Positions 1 to 56,520 of a stretch of DNA of 56,520 nucleotides are shown one piece after another (position 1 is the stretch's first letter; each line of letters begins with the position of its first letter). This DNA is from a virus (Duplodnaviria; Caudoviricetes), in IMG/VR virus record IMGVR_UViG_3300034072_001152, positions 1-56,520 of that record; one strand, given 5' to 3'. Position numbers and translations under genes: made by a program. The notes under the pieces are model-generated. The model had not been told where the DNA came from, searched no databases, and was given only the letters and a program-made list of their open reading frames with translations.

Positions 1-127
1 GCGCTTGAGGGCCTGACCGGAAGCATCAAGGGGCTTGAGGGCCTTTCCGAGACGTTCGGCGCTTTCCTGAACGGCTCGGCCATCGGTTCGCAGGTTTCCG
101 GCATCAGCAAGGCTCTCGGCATCGGCG
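1..127. repeat. Terminal duplication identical to 56394..56520 (circular assembly overlap)
   Basis: Exact 127-nt identity of both ends, in frame within the tape measure gene; the length matches a common assembler k-mer. Confidence 0.95.
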
Positions 128-51326: not shown

Positions 51327-51445
51327 TGGGCACGATCTGGCCTGACGGGAAGCCGCTGCTGGAACAGCCCTACAAGCTGAAGCAGGCATTCGCGATCATC
51401 AGCCAGGTCGAACACAAGGCGAGGAAGCAGCCCGGTGCCGCTTGA
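51155..51445 (+). CDS. -1 frameshift extension (gpGT-like)
   Basis: A AAA AAC heptamer at 51155..51161; the -1 frame is open to TGA 51445 and encodes WPDGKPLLEQPYKLKQAFAII. Confidence 0.75.
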   Translation, partial: KKLIVAALRVFCPEVVGEQAIFWPPNDPSPVCIERPCDLGSGEWLELVSIRQSCVSMMGTIWPDGKPLLEQPYKLKQAFAIISQVEHKARKQPGAA

Positions 51446-52142
51446 TTATCGGATCGAGATTCCACCGGGCGGCTTCGTCACGCTGGGCGGCGAGTTGAAG
51501 AAGCTCGCCGACCGGCTCATTCTTGATGTCAGCGACCGGGCCGCGACCAAGCTGAAATCGCAGGTCCGGCAAGATATGGCTGGTGCCGGTCTGGGCCGGC
51601 TCGGTCAGGCGATCACCAGCACATCGGATAAGGCGCGCGGCGGCACGATCTATCGCCGCGGCGGTGTCAGCCGGGCATCGGGCATCGTCTATATCCGCAC
51701 CAAGGCGCCGCGCACTGTCGGTGCGATCATCTCCTACACCGAGGGCGCGGAAATTACCCCGAAGAAGGGGCGCTGGCTCTACTTCCCGACTGATCAAGCG
51801 CAGCGTCTGGTCGGCAAGGGCAAGGGCCGCCGCCGTCTGGTTCCGGCCGATTGGAAGTCGAGCGGCATGGAGGCCAAGCTAGGCCCGCTGTTCCGGATCC
51901 GTGGCAGCAGCGGCAACCCGTTGCTGGTCGTCCGCAATGTCGGCGTCAGCGAGGTCGGTGCGCGCGGTGGCAGGCCGCGATCGCTCACGAAGTCGGGCCG
52001 CCCGCGCAAGGGTGACAGGACTGCCGAACTGGTCGTCGTGTTCGTTGGCATCCCGCGCACCAGTCGCAAGGTCCGCGTCAATGTCCGACAGCGCGCGTTT
52101 CAGGCGGCGCAGCAGGCGACGGCCGAATTGCGAGGGGTCTAG
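51435..52142 (+). CDS. Basic neck/tail completion-like protein
   Basis: 235 aa, very basic; GAEITPKKGRWLYFPT motif. Confidence 0.65.
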   Translation: MPLDYRIEIPPGGFVTLGGELKKLADRLILDVSDRAATKLKSQVRQDMAGAGLGRLGQAITSTSDKARGGTIYRRGGVSRASGIVYIRTKAPRTVGAIISYTEGAEITPKKGRWLYFPTDQAQRLVGKGKGRRRLVPADWKSSGMEAKLGPLFRIRGSSGNPLLVVRNVGVSEVGARGGRPRSLTKSGRPRKGDRTAELVVVFVGIPRTSRKVRVNVRQRAFQAAQQATAELRGV

Positions 52143-52686: not shown

Positions 52687-52734
52687 GACGTGACCAATAC
52701 CGCGCTTTGCGCGCTCCGCAAGGGAGGCGCATGA
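52681..52734 (+). CDS. Leader peptide (17 aa) coupled to the RAMP gene
   Basis: MADVTNTALCALRKGGA; its stop overlaps the ATG at 52731 (ATGA). Confidence 0.5.
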   Translation: MADVTNTALCALRKGGA

Positions 52735-53309
52735 TGGCGGCCTCCAAGACCATTGAGCTTCCCGCTCTGAAGATTCAGACGCTTTCGCTCATGCTGGTGG
52801 GCGATAGCCCGCTGATCGTCCACGCTTGGTCCGAGAAGGCCAAGCGCCAGATGCTCGACAAGCAGATGAAGAAGGCGACCAAGGCCAAGGAGGCGAAAGA
52901 CCCTGAGGCCGATTACGAGGCTTGCTTCTATCGCACGGAAACGGGGGGCTACGGCTTCCCGGCCATTGGGGTGAAGGCGGCGATGGTGTCGGCCTGCCGG
53001 TTCGTGGACATGAAAATGACCGAGGCTCGCGGGGCCTTTCACATCGACTGCGAGATGTTGTCGGTAATCGGCGACCCTCGCCCTCGCGAGGACATGGTGC
53101 GGGTCGGTATGGGCACCGCTGACATTCGCTATCGTCCGGAGTTCCCGCAGTGGAAAATTCCGGTCGACATCAAGTTCAACGCTGGCGTCATCAGTGCCGA
53201 GCAGATCGCAAACCTGCTTAACACGGCGGGCTTCGCCATCGGCATTGGCGAGTGGCGACCGGAGCGCAACGGTTCCTATGGCCGCTTTCATGTCGGGGGT
53301 GGCGAGTGA
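52731..53309 (+). CDS. Stand-alone Cas7/RAMP-like RNA-binding protein
   Basis: First strand LVGDSPLIVH, FPAIGVKAAMVSAC helix, RYRPEF..W..V.I.F, C-terminal Gly-rich loop AGFAIGIGEWRPERNGSYGRFHV; no other cas genes. Confidence 0.75.
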   Translation: MMAASKTIELPALKIQTLSLMLVGDSPLIVHAWSEKAKRQMLDKQMKKATKAKEAKDPEADYEACFYRTETGGYGFPAIGVKAAMVSACRFVDMKMTEARGAFHIDCEMLSVIGDPRPREDMVRVGMGTADIRYRPEFPQWKIPVDIKFNAGVISAEQIANLLNTAGFAIGIGEWRPERNGSYGRFHVGGGE

Positions 53310-53776
53310 TGATCTACAAGTGGAAAGAAGGCGCGCGGGTCAGCATTGACCCGCAAGCCGCTGGCGAAGAAATCGAGCGGGTCCGAGTTGCTCAGAATGG
53401 ACGGCTGCTCGCCCCTGATCTTGTCGAGAGTGCTCGCGACCCGTCATCGCCTCTGCATCCGGCTTTCGAGTGGGATGACGCAACGGCTGCCGAAAACTGG
53501 CGGGTCGAGCAGGCAAGCTACTTGATCCGGTCGATTGAGGTCATCGTCGAGCGGCAGGAAGAAGAAAGGCCGATCCGGGCGTTCGTCTCGGTGAAGCGCG
53601 ATGAGGACCGCTCCTATACGAGCGTTTCGCACGCGATGGCTGACCCCGATCTTCGTCAACAGGTGCTCGCTGGGGCGCTGAAGGAATTGGAAGCGTGGCG
53701 GGTTCGCTACGCAGAGCTTGTCGAACTGGCGAAGGTTTTCGCCGCGATCGACGAGGCTCGGGCCGCCAATGAATAG
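53309..53776 (+). CDS. Partner protein of the RAMP/pentamer-array cassette
   Basis: 155 aa, TGATG overlap; VESARDPSSPLHPAFEWDD..AA..WR..QA..LIRSI motif. Confidence 0.8.
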   Translation: MIYKWKEGARVSIDPQAAGEEIERVRVAQNGRLLAPDLVESARDPSSPLHPAFEWDDATAAENWRVEQASYLIRSIEVIVERQEEERPIRAFVSVKRDEDRSYTSVSHAMADPDLRQQVLAGALKELEAWRVRYAELVELAKVFAAIDEARAANE

Positions 53777-53785
53777 GGCTCGAAA

Positions 53786-53945
53786 CATGGCAGGCGTGGC
53801 AGGGCTAGGCTCGGCAGGGCTCGGCCGGGCGTGGCGCGGCTGGGTGAGGCATGGCAGGCGAGGTTAGGCTCGGCGCGTCCTAGTAGGGCAAGGCATGGCG
53901 GGGCAAGGCATGGCGAGTTGAGGCTCGGCAGGCTTGCCTAGGCAG
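53786..53945 (+). ncRNA. GGY-NN pentamer array, two guide-like units
   Basis: 12 pentamers (53793..53852) and 14 pentamers (53857..53926) delimited by GGCA tetramers at 53789, 53853 and 53927; 23 of 26 begin with GGY. Confidence 0.8.
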
Positions 53946-53964
53946 TCAGCCACTAAGCAACCCG

Positions 53965-53997
53965 GAGGGGGTCACGAAAGTGGCCCCCTCTTTATTT
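53965..53997 (+). terminator. Intrinsic terminator closing the cassette
   Basis: GAGGGGGTCAC-gaaa-GTGGCCCCCTC-TTTATTT. Confidence 0.85.
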
Positions 53998-54017
53998 GGA
54001 GAAACGGAAAGAAGAGA

Positions 54018-56520
54018 ATGTCACAATCATCTGTTTTTCCGATTTTTTTGCGAGCCGAATACCGCGATAGCACCGCGCTTCAACGCTTTCAGAGCGATGC
54101 GCAGCGGGCTGCGCAGGCCGCCAAGCGCGAGTTTCAGGGGGTGAAGGCGGCGCTCGACGCGGCTCTGACACGACCTCGCACCAGTGGCGGCAGCCTAGAC
54201 CTAGGGGTTGATGAGCTTCGCCGGGCAGCGCAGGCTCAGCAGGAGGTCGCTGCAGCGGCGAGACAGGTTGCCGAGGCGACCCGGCGAGCAGCACAGGCCA
54301 GCGGGAGCTTTGACGCCTCGCTCTCCCGGTCGACCCGTGCGGCCTTCGAGTATGCGAACGCGCAGGAACGCTCGTCGCGCGAGATGCTTGAGCAGCTCTC
54401 TCTTCTCGACCGCGTGCAGGCTGAGCTAAATCAGGTCGCCAGCGCGTCGGATGCGGTCACGGCAGCGAACCGACGCGGCACCTCGGTATCGGGGCAACAG
54501 CGGCAGGGATTGCAACAGCTCTCGTTTCAGCTGAATGACGTGGCGACGCAATTCGCCCTTGGAGCGAGCGCCACCCAGATTTTCGCGGCGCAGTCGGGTC
54601 AGGTTATCCAGGCGTTGCAGACGATGACGGGAGGCACCAGCCGCCTAGCTGCCTTCCTCGGTGGGCCTTGGGGGTTGGCACTCACCTCGGCCGCGATCGT
54701 CGTTTCACCCTTCATCGGCAGGCTGTTCGAGGCGGGTGAGGCCAGCGACAAGATGAGCAAGGCGCTCGATCAGGCCCGGTTCGCGAGTGACGGCATGGCC
54801 TCGGCTCAGAGCATCCTCGGCGATGTCATCGATCTGACGACCGGCAGGATGAAGGACCAGACCAATCAGGCGGTCATACTCGCGCGGGCTCAGCTGCAGC
54901 TGGCCGAGGTCCGGGCCCGGGTTGCAGCGAATGAAGCGCGCACCACGTTGCAGGGTGCTGCACGGCGGACCACCCAAGTCGATATTGCATCGGCTGGCAC
55001 TGGAAGTTTCGGCGGCACCGTGTTCCGCAGTGTCCGGCGCCCGACTATCTCAGCAGCCGCGGCGCGACAGGCCCTTGCAGGTGATACGCAGGGGGCCCTC
55101 GATGCGCTGAAGGAAGCGGTCGACACGGGCAAGACGACTGCGGCGATCTACGCCGAGACGGCAACGGCGATCGCAAACCTCGGTGCCGAGACTGAAAACA
55201 TGAAGCGGTTCGGCGACGCGCTGCGGGCCTTGGAAGGCGACCAGAGTGCTCTGCGCCAGTTCATCCGTCCTGACAGATCTCGCACGCCGCGCGGTGGCGA
55301 TGAAGCCAAGCGCCAGGCACGGGAGGCGGAACGGCTGGCCACGTTCGGCGAGCAGGCGGCGGAGAGTATCGCCCGGTTGAACGAGCGGTTCGACGAGCAG
55401 CCCCGTTTGATCGATCAGGCATCGCAGGCAACGCGGCAGCTCGATGCGCTGATTTCCGACCTCAGCGAGCGCAAGCCCGCCAACTTCGAGGCTCTGATCG
55501 CCGATGCGGAGAAGGCCAAGGCGACCGTGCAAGCGGCGCTGACCCGTCCCTTCGACGACTTGCGGCGCGAGAGCGAGGAACGCCTTGAGATTGAGCAGCT
55601 GCTCGCGCAAGGCCGGGAAGATGAGGCCGTCGCCTTGCAAGAGGTCTTGCGCCTGAAGCGGCAGATCGGCGGCGTTACCGAAGAGCAGCGCGCCGAGGTC
55701 GAGGCGATCGTTCGGGCCGAAGCGGCCAAGACCCGTGAGCTTCGGGTGCAGCAACAGCTGTTCGCCGCACAACTCGAAGTGATCGACACGGTGCAGCGCT
55801 CGCTCACCGATTTGCTGAGCGGTCGCTCGACCGATTTCTTCGGGGATTTCCGGCAAGCCCTTCGCGACCTGCAAGGGCAACGGCTCTTCGAAAACATCTT
55901 CGGAGAGGCCTTCAGGGGCATCCGGGATGAGCTTCAGGCCAACACGCCGCTTGGCAGGGCGAACAAGGCGCTGGCGGACGAGACGAACAAGGCGGCGCAG
56001 ACCGTCAGTGTTGCGAAAGATGCGCTCGCTGATTTGGCCGACGCTTTTGCTCAGGGTGCAGCCCGCATTCGCAATGGTGGGGCCGCAAACGACAACGGCT
56101 TTGCAGCGGCGTTCGGCAACGGTGCTTCGGTAGGAGCCGGTGCGCTAGGGCTGGGCGGTGCGGCGCAGCGCTTCTTGAACAGCGCCCGAGGTAACGAAAT
56201 CCTTGTCGAAGCCAAGATCGCCCGCAACTCAGTGACCGATCTTGCCAAGCTCATCAGCACGGGCATCGGTGACAGCATCGGAGAGCAGCTCGAGGATGTG
56301 CTGGGCACACGCTTTGCGCAGGTCCTTGGCGACACCATCGGCGGCTTTATCGCCGGCAAGACGCTTGGCGGCACCACGGGCGGCATCTTGGGCGCGCTTG
56401 AGGGCCTGACCGGAAGCATCAAGGGGCTTGAGGGCCTTTCCGAGACGTTCGGCGCTTTCCTGAACGGCTCGGCCATCGGTTCGCAGGTTTCCGGCATCAG
56501 CAAGGCTCTCGGCATCGGCG
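54018..56520 (+). CDS. Tail tape measure protein, N-terminal part (about 1236 aa in total across the origin)
   Basis: Open from ATG 54018 to the contig end; LSFQLNDVATQFALG..QIFAAQSGQV lambda-type TMP motif; Ala-rich helical. Confidence 0.88.
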   Translation, partial: MSQSSVFPIFLRAEYRDSTALQRFQSDAQRAAQAAKREFQGVKAALDAALTRPRTSGGSLDLGVDELRRAAQAQQEVAAAARQVAEATRRAAQASGSFDASLSRSTRAAFEYANAQERSSREMLEQLSLLDRVQAELNQVASASDAVTAANRRGTSVSGQQRQGLQQLSFQLNDVATQFALGASATQIFAAQSGQVIQALQTMTGGTSRLAAFLGGPWGLALTSAAIVVSPFIGRLFEAGEASDKMSKALDQARFASDGMASAQSILGDVIDLTTGRMKDQTNQAVILARAQLQLAEVRARVAANEARTTLQGAARRTTQVDIASAGTGSFGGTVFRSVRRPTISAAAARQALAGDTQGALDALKEAVDTGKTTAAIYAETATAIANLGAETENMKRFGDALRALEGDQSALRQFIRPDRSRTPRGGDEAKRQAREAERLATFGEQAAESIARLNERFDEQPRLIDQASQATRQLDALISDLSERKPANFEALIADAEKAKATVQAALTRPFDDLRRESEERLEIEQLLAQGREDEAVALQEVLRLKRQIGGVTEEQRAEVEAIVRAEAAKTRELRVQQQLFAAQLEVIDTVQRSLTDLLSGRSTDFFGDFRQALRDLQGQRLFENIFGEAFRGIRDELQANTPLGRANKALADETNKAAQTVSVAKDALADLADAFAQGAARIRNGGAANDNGFAAAFGNGASVGAGALGLGGAAQRFLNSARGNEILVEAKIARNSVTDLAKLISTGIGDSIGEQLEDVLGTRFAQVLGDTIGGFIAGKTLGGTTGGILGALEGLTGSIKGLEGLSETFGAFLNGSAIGSQVSGISKALGIG
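56394..56520. repeat. Terminal duplication identical to 1..127
   Basis: Exact identity. Confidence 0.95.

What the first reader, a model, noticed from the sequence alone, without database searches (positions are those of the whole stretch)
54024..54065. Array unit 2 decodes (pair 2, skip 1) to the start of the tape measure gene
Seen: the reverse complement of unit 2 NNs with one skipped base gives GAn TCn TCn ATn TTn CCn ATn TTn CTn AGn GCn GAn TAn TCn. TMP codons 3-16 are CAA TCA TCT GTT TTT CCG ATT TTT TTG CGA GCC GAA TAC CGC. That is 22/28 nt and 9 of 14 dinucleotides perfect (21/24 nt without the two terminal ones). The skipped base is always the wobble position. Two mismatches can be synonymous (CTn vs TTG Leu; AGR vs CGA Arg), one is conservative (Ile vs Val), and two would be G-U/G-T wobbles. 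A rough binomial estimate at p=0.25 is of order 1e-9 to 1e-8 per site, and the site is about 100 nt from the array. Inference: the guide targets the TMP gene of a related competitor while this phage's allele, unusually AT-rich in codon choice here, partly escapes. A code that ignores wobble bases would resist synonymous escape.
Basis: partly seen in the sequence, partly recalled or inferred. Interest (0 to 1): 0.95.

Follow-up and report, generated by a model that had tools for sequence, protein, structure and literature searches.

The report
VIPR guide aimed at tape-measure gene
The repeat array is a phage VIPR guide-RNA array (a kind first reported in 2026), and its second guide, read two bases on and one off, matches the first codons of the neighbouring tape-measure gene, probably to silence that gene in rival related phages.

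Summary
The reverse complement of the 14 NN dinucleotides of unit 2 (53857-53926) matches the + strand at 54024-54064 with one skipped base, 22/28. The next best score in the window, over gaps 0-4 and both strands, is 18. No control reached 22: 0 of 20,000 shuffled guides and 0 of 300 Markov surrogates.

The locus is a VIPR system, described in three 2026 bioRxiv preprints. It has a Vipr RAMP protein (52707-53309; profile E=3.1e-10 to PDB 36pp 'SUSP1 Vipr protein'), an accessory gene (53309-53776), two GGYNN guide units, a tail and a terminator.

It holds in this clade: a guide of a related phage matches the vipr gene of this window 22/22, and its own vipr only 16/22.

Self scores 78.6%, just under the published 80% threshold. 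One relative's tape-measure allele scores 23/28. No better target turned up in the collections searched. A relative's last guide hits the same site.

Targeting of relatives with self-escape is the likeliest reading but is unproven. This is a new member of a known kind.

The parts
52707..53309 (+). The vipr gene, a RAMP-like guide-binding protein of about 200 aa. The start is TTG at 52707 or ATG at 52731.
   Evidence: It matches phrog_4652 at E=6.7e-33. phmmer against PDB 36pp_D 'SUSP1 Vipr protein' gives E=1.1e-6, aligning a G-loop GxGxWRP and a thumb YRP. A profile of 10 homologues gives E=3.1e-10. It is 41% identical to Gordonia phage Pipp gp42.
53309..53776 (+). A vap-like accessory gene of 155 aa with no known function.
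   Evidence: It matches phrog_15946 at E=1.3e-23. I found no hit in Pfam, PADLOC, NCBIfam or PDB. In all 12 loci examined it lies next to a vipr homologue. A GGCNN array is present in 13 of the 14 loci found through it.
53789..53792 (+). The first 4-nt step (GGCA), which shifts the 5-nt register and bounds the first unit.
   Evidence: Register print and step positions.
53793..53852 (+). The repeat tract of vrRNA1, made of 12 GGY-NN units.
53853..53856 (+). The second 4-nt step (GGCA), lying between the two units.
53857..53926 (+). It has 14 pentamers, of which 11 carry GGY and 3 carry degenerate triplets (GTC, AGT, GTT).
   Evidence: Degenerate triplets (GTC, CGC) also occur in the relative's guide that has three perfect targets.
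53927..53963 (+). The third GGCA step and the conserved 3' tail with a small hairpin.
   Evidence: RNAalifold on the window and two relatives predicts a hairpin whose sequence is conserved.
53964..54001 (+). An intrinsic-terminator-like hairpin (12 pairs) followed by a T-run.
   Evidence: Two pairs change on both sides and stay paired across three relatives.
54018..56520 (+). A tape-measure-like gene. The ORF runs over the record's 127-bp terminal repeat and is 1236 aa in all.
   Evidence: It matches phrog_8892 'tail length tape measure protein' at E=6.3e-5 and Pfam TMP_2 at E=5.5e-4, which is below Pfam's cut-off.
54024..54064 (+). The near-target of vrRNA2 at codons 3-16. It scores 22/28, or 24/28 if rG:dT and rU:dG count as pairs, and every skipped base is a wobble position.
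55419..55453 (+). The near-target of vrRNA1 at tape-measure codons 468-479, in codon phase, scoring 18/24.
   Evidence: (28 of 1000 shuffles reach the score). The best hits in L033 and in the tape-measure gene of G002 fall at the homologous site.
53088..53119 (-). A site inside this phage's own vipr gene that matches the second guide of a related phage (G002) perfectly, 22/22. Every skipped base is a wobble position.
   Evidence: 0 of 1000 shuffles reach the score.
51735..51763 (-). A site in gene 51435-52142 that matches the first guide of G002 at 17/20, in codon phase.
   Evidence: (1 of 1000 shuffles reach the score). The homologous site in G001 scores 16/20.

Best explanation
The array at 53789-53963 is the guide array of a VIPR (Viral Interference Programmable Repeat) system. 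By the published mechanism, the array is transcribed on the + strand and one Vipr protomer binds each GGYNN repeat. Vipr hides the GGY bases and presents the two NN bases, which pair with two consecutive bases of one DNA strand while every third target base is flipped out. The bound filament blocks transcription.

vrRNA2 (unit 2) is a real guide of this kind. Its cognate sequence is the first codons of the tape-measure gene family, and vrRNA1 is aimed at a second conserved motif of the same gene. I infer that the intended targets are tape-measure alleles of related phages or satellites that meet this phage in the same host. This phage's own allele stays just below the effective match: 6 mismatches of 28, including a synonymous Leu switch and a synonymous Arg switch at first codon positions.

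Shown here:
- The locus is a VIPR locus by homology and layout.
- The gapped match is real and in codon phase.
- The rule holds in this clade.
- An orthologous guide in a relative hits the same site.

Inferred:
- The array is expressed.
- The ribonucleoprotein forms.
- The targets are silenced.
- The system discriminates self from non-self.
For: 1. The locus belongs to the VIPR family.
- The Vipr homologue matches PDB 36pp 'SUSP1 Vipr protein' at E=1.1e-6 as a single sequence and E=3.1e-10 as a profile.
- The aligned G-loop (E-W-R for SUSP1 D177-W178-R179) and the thumb Arg (SUSP1 R138) are the residues that the structure paper names as guide contacts (10.64898/2026.04.26.720927, Results).
- The units have 12 and 14 GGYNN repeats, inside the published range of 9-16.

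2. The vipr, vap and array module recurs in very distant phages.
- It is present in Gordonia phage Pipp and Mycobacterium phage Saal.
- It is present in IMG/VR loci L009-L022.

3. The skip rule holds in this clade. The second guide of G002 matches vipr of the window, G001 and G003 at 22/22 each. Their wobble bases differ, and its own vipr scores 16/22. In each of the three cases, 0 of 1000 shuffles reach the score.

4. The vrRNA2 match is significant. Self scores 22/28, a score reached by 0 of 20,000 shuffles and by 0 of 300 surrogates. Against G001 it scores 23/28 (0 of 1000 shuffles) and against G002 21/28 (1 of 1000).

5. Three of the five mismatched self codons carry the guide's reading in natural alleles. 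Ile is found in L030 and L038. CTN Leu is found in G001, G002, L030, L033 and L038. AGR Arg is found in G001 and L034.

6. The last guide of G002 shares five consecutive NN with vrRNA2. Its best hit in G002 and in the window is the tape-measure start. Its 3' NNs follow its own lineage's N-terminus. The two phages' Leu codons are reciprocal: each phage carries the class that its own guide does not read.

7. The best hits of vrRNA1 in the window, in the L033 locus and within the tape-measure gene of G002 fall at one homologous tape-measure motif, in phase.

8. The papers report lower self-match than non-self match, and no self hit at 80% or above.
Against: No cognate target was found.
- The perfect 12-NN core is absent from viral contigs, metagenome contigs and genome contigs.
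- The full pattern with 3 or fewer mismatches was found in 0 of 401 genomes of the order of G004.
- Only 1 of 7 non-self alleles (G001, 23/28) beats self at 22/28, and only by one base. One ties (L030), and five are lower.
- If rG:dT and rU:dG count as pairs, self and G001 tie at 24/28.

Other gaps remain.
- The mismatch tolerance of VIPR is not given in the text I could read: the structure paper has 0 occurrences of 'mismatch'. I therefore cannot say that 6 mismatches abolish binding.
- Three of the 14 units lack GGY.
- By score alone, the hit of the G002 last guide on its own gene is weak (14/18; 94 of 1000 shuffles reach it).
- No expression data exist for this locus.
Confidence: 0.6

Rival explanations
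1. The match is autoregulation. vrRNA2, and perhaps vrRNA1, bind this phage's own tape-measure gene with a deliberately imperfect match. This would delay or damp late tail-gene transcription, or stop read-through from the VIPR operon.
For: In two relatives, the guide and its site sit about 100 nt apart on the same strand. Both guides of the window have their best genomic hit in the phage's own tape-measure gene. With G:U-type pairs counted, self reaches 24/28, or 86%. The guide is complementary to the coding strand, so it could also meet the mRNA, and the structure paper reports guide-RNA duplexes with ssRNA.
Against: A regulator of self would be expected to match self best. G001's allele matches better than self, and self mismatches fall at Leu and Arg codons where a synonymous match was available. 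An intrinsic terminator already separates the array from the gene. The papers found no self hit at 80% or above and describe lower self-match as a way to avoid autoimmunity. G001 has the same gene layout but no tape-measure-directed guide.
Confidence: 0.15
2. The guide is obsolete. vrRNA2 once matched a tape-measure allele, its own ancestor's or a rival's, and has since drifted. The likeness is historical and has no present effect.
For: Three of its 14 units have lost GGY. No target at 25/28 or better was found in any of the collections searched. The match is under the published 80% threshold.
Against: Degenerate triplets are described as frequent in vrRNAs (10.64898/2026.04.26.720920, Methods section 20). 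They also occur in the G002 guide that has three perfect targets. The five-NN core is kept in two lineages, while the flanks track each lineage's N-terminus. Sampling is thin: only two close relatives were found in IMG/VR.
Confidence: 0.15
3. The match is chance: an AT-rich NN string happens to resemble an AT-rich gene start.
For: A 21/28 hit at gap 4 arose elsewhere in the window when all sub-windows and gaps were allowed. Both the guide and the site are AT-rich in a genome of 62% G+C.
Against: No control reached 22: 0 of 20,000 shuffled guides and 0 of 300 surrogates. Among the AT-rich windows the next best score is 16. The match is in codon phase and uses the published gap. It recurs at the homologous site of G001, G002 and L030, and with an orthologous guide.
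Confidence: 0.02

Closest known systems
VIPR systems. Type II, from Escherichia phage SUSP1 and a Pseudomonas fulva prophage, is the studied case. Sources are bioRxiv 10.64898/2026.04.26.720920, 10.64898/2026.04.26.720927 and 10.64898/2026.10.15.759431.
   Same: The locus has a small Vipr RAMP protein and one accessory gene. Its guides are 9-16 GGY/NN pentamers followed by a 3' tail. The NN bases read the target with one skipped base, and the skip falls at the wobble position of codons. Targets lie in rival mobile elements, including other VIPR loci. The self match is lower than the non-self match.
   Different: The Vipr protein is distant from SUSP1 Vipr: only the C-terminal third aligns by sequence. 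Units here are separated only by a 4-nt GGCA step, not by a tail per guide. I take this to be the 'staggered array' of the paper's fig. S18, but I read only the legend. The tail is a small hairpin plus a terminator, and I did not test for the SUSP1-type pseudoknot. The accessory protein (phrog_15946) has no assigned fold, and I cannot say which of vap1-6 or which of the seven types this is, because the supplements are closed. The host is probably a sphingomonad, judging by a tape-measure relative in an Erythrobacter MAG. Both guides aim at the phage's own kind of tape-measure gene.
Class 1 CRISPR Cas7-crRNA backbones (Cascade, Csm/Cmr)
   Same: Both use a RAMP fold with a G-loop and a thumb. 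One protomer binds per RNA repeat step, and the guide-target duplex is broken periodically. These points are as stated in the papers.
   Different: CRISPR guides are contiguous, with every sixth base flipped. The window contains no spacer-repeat array, no other cas genes, and no Cas1-Cas2 adaptation genes, so no adaptation module. In VIPR, 3 of every 5 guide bases are hidden and 1 of every 3 target bases is skipped.
TRAP-type ring proteins that bind triplet repeats separated by 2-nt spacers. This comparison is recalled from memory and comes from no call.
   Same: The RNA has a conserved triplet alternating with two free bases.
   Different: TRAP reads the triplets only and does not use the spacers as a guide. 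I considered this early and dropped it once the Vipr homology appeared.

Membership tests
VIPR system | A Vipr protein: a small RAMP homologue with a G-loop and a thumb | tested here: met
   Sequence match to PDB 36pp 'SUSP1 Vipr protein' at E=1.1e-6 for the single sequence and E=3.1e-10 for the profile. The G-loop GxGEWRP and the thumb Y-R-P align to SUSP1 D177-W178-R179 and R138.
VIPR system | Tandem GGY/NN (YNNGG) pentamer repeats, 9-16 per guide, next to vipr | tested here: met
   There are two units of 12 and 14 pentamers at 53793-53926, of which 23 of 26 carry GGY. The five-unit GGCNN pattern gives 11 matches in the window, against 0.11 expected, all of them in this array. It is the only such array in the record.
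VIPR system | A conserved, structured 3' tail after the repeat tract | tested here: inconclusive
   A hairpin plus terminator is conserved in 3 relatives, with 2 compensatory pairs in the terminator stem. With only 3 sequences the small hairpin shows no covariation. The pseudoknot described for the SUSP1 clade was not examined.
VIPR system | An adjacent accessory (vap) gene | tested here: inconclusive
   A 155-aa gene follows vipr. It co-occurs with vipr in all 12 loci examined, and in Pipp and Saal. Identity with any published vap1-6 could not be checked because the supplements are closed. It has no Pfam, PDB, PADLOC or NCBIfam hit.
VIPR system | Targets follow the 1-nt skip rule, mostly in coding sequence, with the skip at the wobble position | tested here: met
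   The second guide of G002 matches three vipr alleles at 22/22 with the skip at the wobble position. For vrRNA2, gap 1 is uniquely best and in phase.
VIPR system | A natural target with at least 80% NN match, and no self target at or above 80% (the papers' working threshold) | tested here: met
   vrRNA2 scores 78.6% on self (below the threshold) and 82.1% on G001's allele (above it). The margin is one base, so this is weak.
VIPR system | vrRNAs are expressed, bound by Vipr, and silence the target | not testable with these tools
   No RNA run was listed that holds the stretch.

The most novel reading that the evidence does not exclude
In this clade, self is told from rival by codon choice. A wobble-blind code leaves only Leu, Arg and Ser codons (CTN/TTR, CGN/AGR, TCN/AGY) open to silent escape. 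Each phage keeps guides against its own family's conserved tape-measure motifs and protects its own copy by holding the codon class that its guide does not read.

The window's guide reads CT and AG where its own gene has TTG and CGA. The relative's guide reads TT and AG where its own gene has CTG and TCC. The two Leu choices are reciprocal.

If this is general, guide sets and six-fold codon usage at target motifs would co-evolve, and immunity groups among related phages could be read from sequence alone.
Probability: 0.3. Interest if true: 0.6.

Novelty: new member of a known kind. Interest (0 to 1): 0.45.

Why it matters
The finding is therefore real but not new.

What this locus adds is a natural case outside the enterobacterial and Pseudomonas clades that were tested.
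- The array is compact and separated only by short steps.
- A small set of related phages aim guides at each other's vipr, at a neighbouring gene, and at the tape-measure gene.
- One guide has a near-self match one base below the published threshold.

This makes the locus a convenient system for measuring how many mismatches, and which ones, separate self from target. That includes G:U-type pairs and silent first-position changes in Leu, Arg and Ser codons.

It also shows that such arrays are annotated as protein genes in public phage records, for example Gordonia phage Pipp gene 43.

Tried and rejected
Ideas considered and dropped
- Protein-coding repeat. Several frames on both strands are open across long arrays in L013 and L022, and the window's own array has stops. 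This is the behaviour of a stop-poor periodic sequence, not of a gene.
- Known RNA family. Rfam gave nothing at or near a gathering score in 53500-54300.
- A TRAP-like or filament-binding site, or a dsDNA protein-binding array. I dropped this once the Vipr homology was found.

Searches that found nothing
- The exact 12-NN target of vrRNA2 gave 0 hits in viral contigs, metagenome contigs and genome contigs.
- The exact 12-NN target of vrRNA1 gave 0 hits in viral contigs.
- The full 14-NN pattern with 3 or fewer mismatches matched 0 of 3 genomes and 0 of 401 genomes of the order of G004. The 401 are a sample, so this is 'not found in those searched'.
- The tail-motif scan gave 8 loci. Only L036 and L037 are relatives, and the other 6 are chance hits without arrays.
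- In 10 other array-bearing loci of about 4-6 kb, no gap-1 hit stood above the other gaps. Those loci are too short to hold most targets.
- A tape-measure N-terminal search in viral contigs with 200 aa found only distant matches to residues 137-200.

Sequencing runs
- No RNA holder was listed.
- Laying contigs of 4 DNA runs gave no cover with variant letters over 54032-54079. It showed only many other GGCNN-type arrays at under 90% likeness.

Tools and literature
- The protein atlas returned only unnamed viral clusters for the accessory protein.
- The literature search for 'pentanucleotide repeat' plus 'mycobacteriophage' listed one unrelated microsatellite paper, PMC6426759, which I saw only in the listing.
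- Supplementary files of the three VIPR preprints were not seen. They may hold this clade's type, its vap class and mismatch data.
Full report
**What is in the sequence**

The window is a complete 56,520-bp virus record with a 127-bp terminal repeat. After the stop of a 155-aa gene at 53776 comes a G-rich tract with a 5-nt period.
- In the window, a five-unit GGCNN pattern gives 11 matches against 0.11 expected, all within 53793-53914.
- It is the only such array in the record.
- Three 4-nt steps (GGCA at 53789, 53853 and 53927) break the register. They bound two units, of 12 pentamers (53793-53852) and 14 pentamers (53857-53926).
- After the units come a conserved tail, a 12-pair terminator hairpin with a T-run (53964-54001), and the ATG at 54018 of a 1236-aa tape-measure-like ORF that runs over the record's ends.

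**The observation**

The reverse complement of its 28 NN bases, laid on the + strand from 54024 with one base skipped per step, matches 22/28.
- Nine dinucleotides are perfect, and the score is 21/24 without the two end dinucleotides.
- Every skipped base is a wobble position.
- Gap 1 is uniquely best, with other gaps and strands peaking at 16-18.

No control reaches 22.
- 0 of 20,000 shuffled guides do so, and 35 reach 21.
- 0 of 800 shuffles over gaps 0-4 do so.
- Among 300 Markov surrogates, none scores above 20.
- Among all 112,960 real positions, the runner-up scores 18. Among the 859 AT-rich windows, the runner-up scores 16.

One caution applies. With every sub-window and every gap allowed, a 21/28 hit turns up elsewhere at gap 4.

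**What it is**

A BLAST search of the region against phage records hit only the array, in 27 Mycobacterium phage records and 1 Gordonia phage record. Saal and Pipp carry the same kind of array, with a similar beginning and end.

The array always travels with two genes, phrog_4652 and phrog_15946, although their order varies.
- The window has the order 4652, 15946, array.
- Pipp has 4652, array, 15946.
- Saal has array, 4652, 15946.
- Most IMG/VR loci have 4652, array, 15946.

The phrog_4652 protein of the window matches one solved structure, PDB 36pp 'SUSP1 Vipr protein', at E=1.1e-6. A profile of 10 homologues gives E=3.1e-10.

That name led to three bioRxiv preprints.
- For 10.64898/2026.04.26.720920 I read the abstract, Results, Discussion, Methods sections 18, 20, 26 and 27, and found passages.
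- For 10.64898/2026.04.26.720927 I read the abstract and Results.
- For 10.64898/2026.10.15.759431 I read the abstract, sections 8 and 17, and found passages.
- I saw no figures and no supplements for any of them.

The preprints describe VIPR systems as follows.
- A system has a roughly 20-kDa RAMP protein (Vipr), an accessory gene (vap), and vrRNAs of 9-16 GGY/NN pentamers with a 3' tail.
- One Vipr protomer binds each repeat and hides the GGY bases.
- The NN bases pair with two target bases, and every third target base is skipped.
- The skipped base usually falls on the wobble position.
- The complex silences transcription.
- Natural targets are rival phages, satellites and other VIPR loci.

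The residues named as guide contacts in SUSP1 Vipr are the thumb Arg and the G-loop Asp-Trp-Arg. In the window's protein they align to Arg and Glu-Trp-Arg.

**Does the rule hold in this clade?**

A degenerate codon pattern for the tape-measure N-terminal motif found three IMG/VR loci. Two of them (L036 in G001 and L037 in G002) have the same layout as the window: vap, array, tail, terminator, tape-measure gene. With G003 (the contig of L009), I fetched the whole contigs and split each array at its GGCA steps. All 12 units are multiples of 5 nt, with 9-14 pentamers each.

In the guide-by-genome matrix, the second guide of G002 matches the vipr gene of the window (53088-53119, minus strand), of G001 and of G003 at 22/22 each.
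- The three sites differ at skipped bases, and the skip is the wobble position.
- G002's own vipr scores 16/22 and encodes a changed peptide there.
- In each of the three cases, 0 of 1000 shuffles reach the score.

This is an independent natural confirmation of the code. It also shows that these phages target each other.

**The finding itself**

The tape-measure N-terminal motif is an old protein motif. It is kept in array-less relatives L029, L030, L033, L034 and L038.

vrRNA2 spells a sensible variant of that motif. Against the homologous site, the scores out of 28 are as follows:

| Allele | vrRNA2 score |
|---|---|
| Self (window) | 22 |
| G001 | 23 |
| L030 | 22 |
| G002 | 21 |
| L038 | 21 |
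| L034 | 20 |
| L033 | 18 |
| L029 | 17 |

The five self codons that mismatch are these:
- A Gln codon read as Asp or Glu.
- A Val codon read as Ile, which is an rU:dG pair.
- Leu TTG read as CTN, which is synonymous and an rG:dT pair.
- Arg CGA read as AGR, which is synonymous.
- The last codon, with both bases mismatched.

For three of these codons, natural alleles carry the guide's reading.

The last guide of G002 shares five consecutive NN with vrRNA2.
- Its best hit is the tape-measure start in both G002 (14/18) and the window (13/18).
- Its 3' NNs follow its own lineage's N-terminus.
- It mismatches its own gene at a synonymous Ser switch, at the same Val/Ile position, and at Leu in the opposite sense to the window.

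By score alone that hit is weak, since 94 of 1000 shuffles reach it. The weight lies in where the hit falls and in the shared core.

vrRNA1 has its best hit in the window at tape-measure codons 468-479, in phase, at 18/24. Of 1000 shuffles, 28 reach that score. Its best hits in the L033 locus (17/24) and within the tape-measure gene of G002 (16/24) fall at the homologous site, and each carries one residue that the guide reads better than self does.

**Reading**

Both guides of this phage are aimed at conserved motifs of the tape-measure gene family, and both stay at 75-79% against the phage's own copy. The papers use 80% as the working threshold. They found no self hit at or above it, and they describe lower self-match as a way to avoid autoimmunity.

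The likeliest reading is therefore that the targets are tape-measure genes of related phages, or of satellites that carry such a gene. The second preprint notes that SUSP1 satellites encode a tape-measure protein. On this reading the phage's own allele escapes.

This part is inferred.
- The margin over self is one base.
- No close target was found in the collections searched.
- The text I could read gives no mismatch tolerance.

Self-regulation and a drifted guide remain open. Chance does not.

**Verdict**

This locus is a new member of the VIPR kind, with a useful near-self case.

Noticed in passing
window 53088-53119 (- strand): This phage's own vipr gene (codons 128-138, just before the thumb Arg) is a perfect 22/22 target of the second guide of a related IMG/VR phage (G002). 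That phage's own vipr differs there at the protein level and scores 16/22.
   Followed up: yes
window 55419-55453 (+): The first guide (vrRNA1) has its best hit in the window inside the same tape-measure gene, in codon phase, at 18/24. The homologous motif is also its best hit in the L033 locus and within the tape-measure gene of G002.
   Followed up: yes
window 51735-51763 (-): The first guide of G002 scores 17/20, a score reached by 1 of 1000 shuffles. The site is in gene 51435-52142 (phrog_6367) and in phase. The homologous site in G001 scores 16/20.
   Followed up: partly
L024 2003-2272 (Gordonia phage Pipp gene 43) and L023 2440-2700 (Mycobacterium phage Saal, between genes 50 and 51): The same vipr, vap and array module occurs in actinobacteriophages. 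In Pipp the array is annotated as a hypothetical protein, and in some Cheoctovirus records a hypothetical protein is drawn over it. The BLAST search of the array hit 27 Mycobacterium phage records and 1 Gordonia phage record.
   Followed up: partly
L022 1676-2958, L013 2255-2953 and L011 2404-2962: These are very long arrays (up to about 1.28 kb) with higher-order periods of 49, 44 and 39 nt, each a multiple of 5 minus 1. That means many short units separated by 4-nt steps or short delimiters. I did not search for their targets beyond the 6-kb loci.
   Followed up: partly
L029 about 1210-1243, L030 about 1965-2002 and L033 about 1960-2002: The tape-measure alleles without a VIPR array are preceded by long non-coding stretches. 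These share a short TGCTATGCTT motif about 20-45 nt before the start codon, which may be a promoter. I did not check whether these are prophages or satellites.
   Followed up: no
window 1-127 and 56394-56520: The record has a 127-bp direct terminal repeat. The tape-measure-like ORF crosses the record's ends, so the assembly is cut inside this gene.
   Followed up: yes
window 53786-53917, runs X2, X4 and X5: Contigs from subsurface and drinking-water metagenome runs align to the array at under 90% likeness and then run on into unlike GGCNN-type sequence. Many other arrays of this kind are therefore present in those runs.
   Followed up: no
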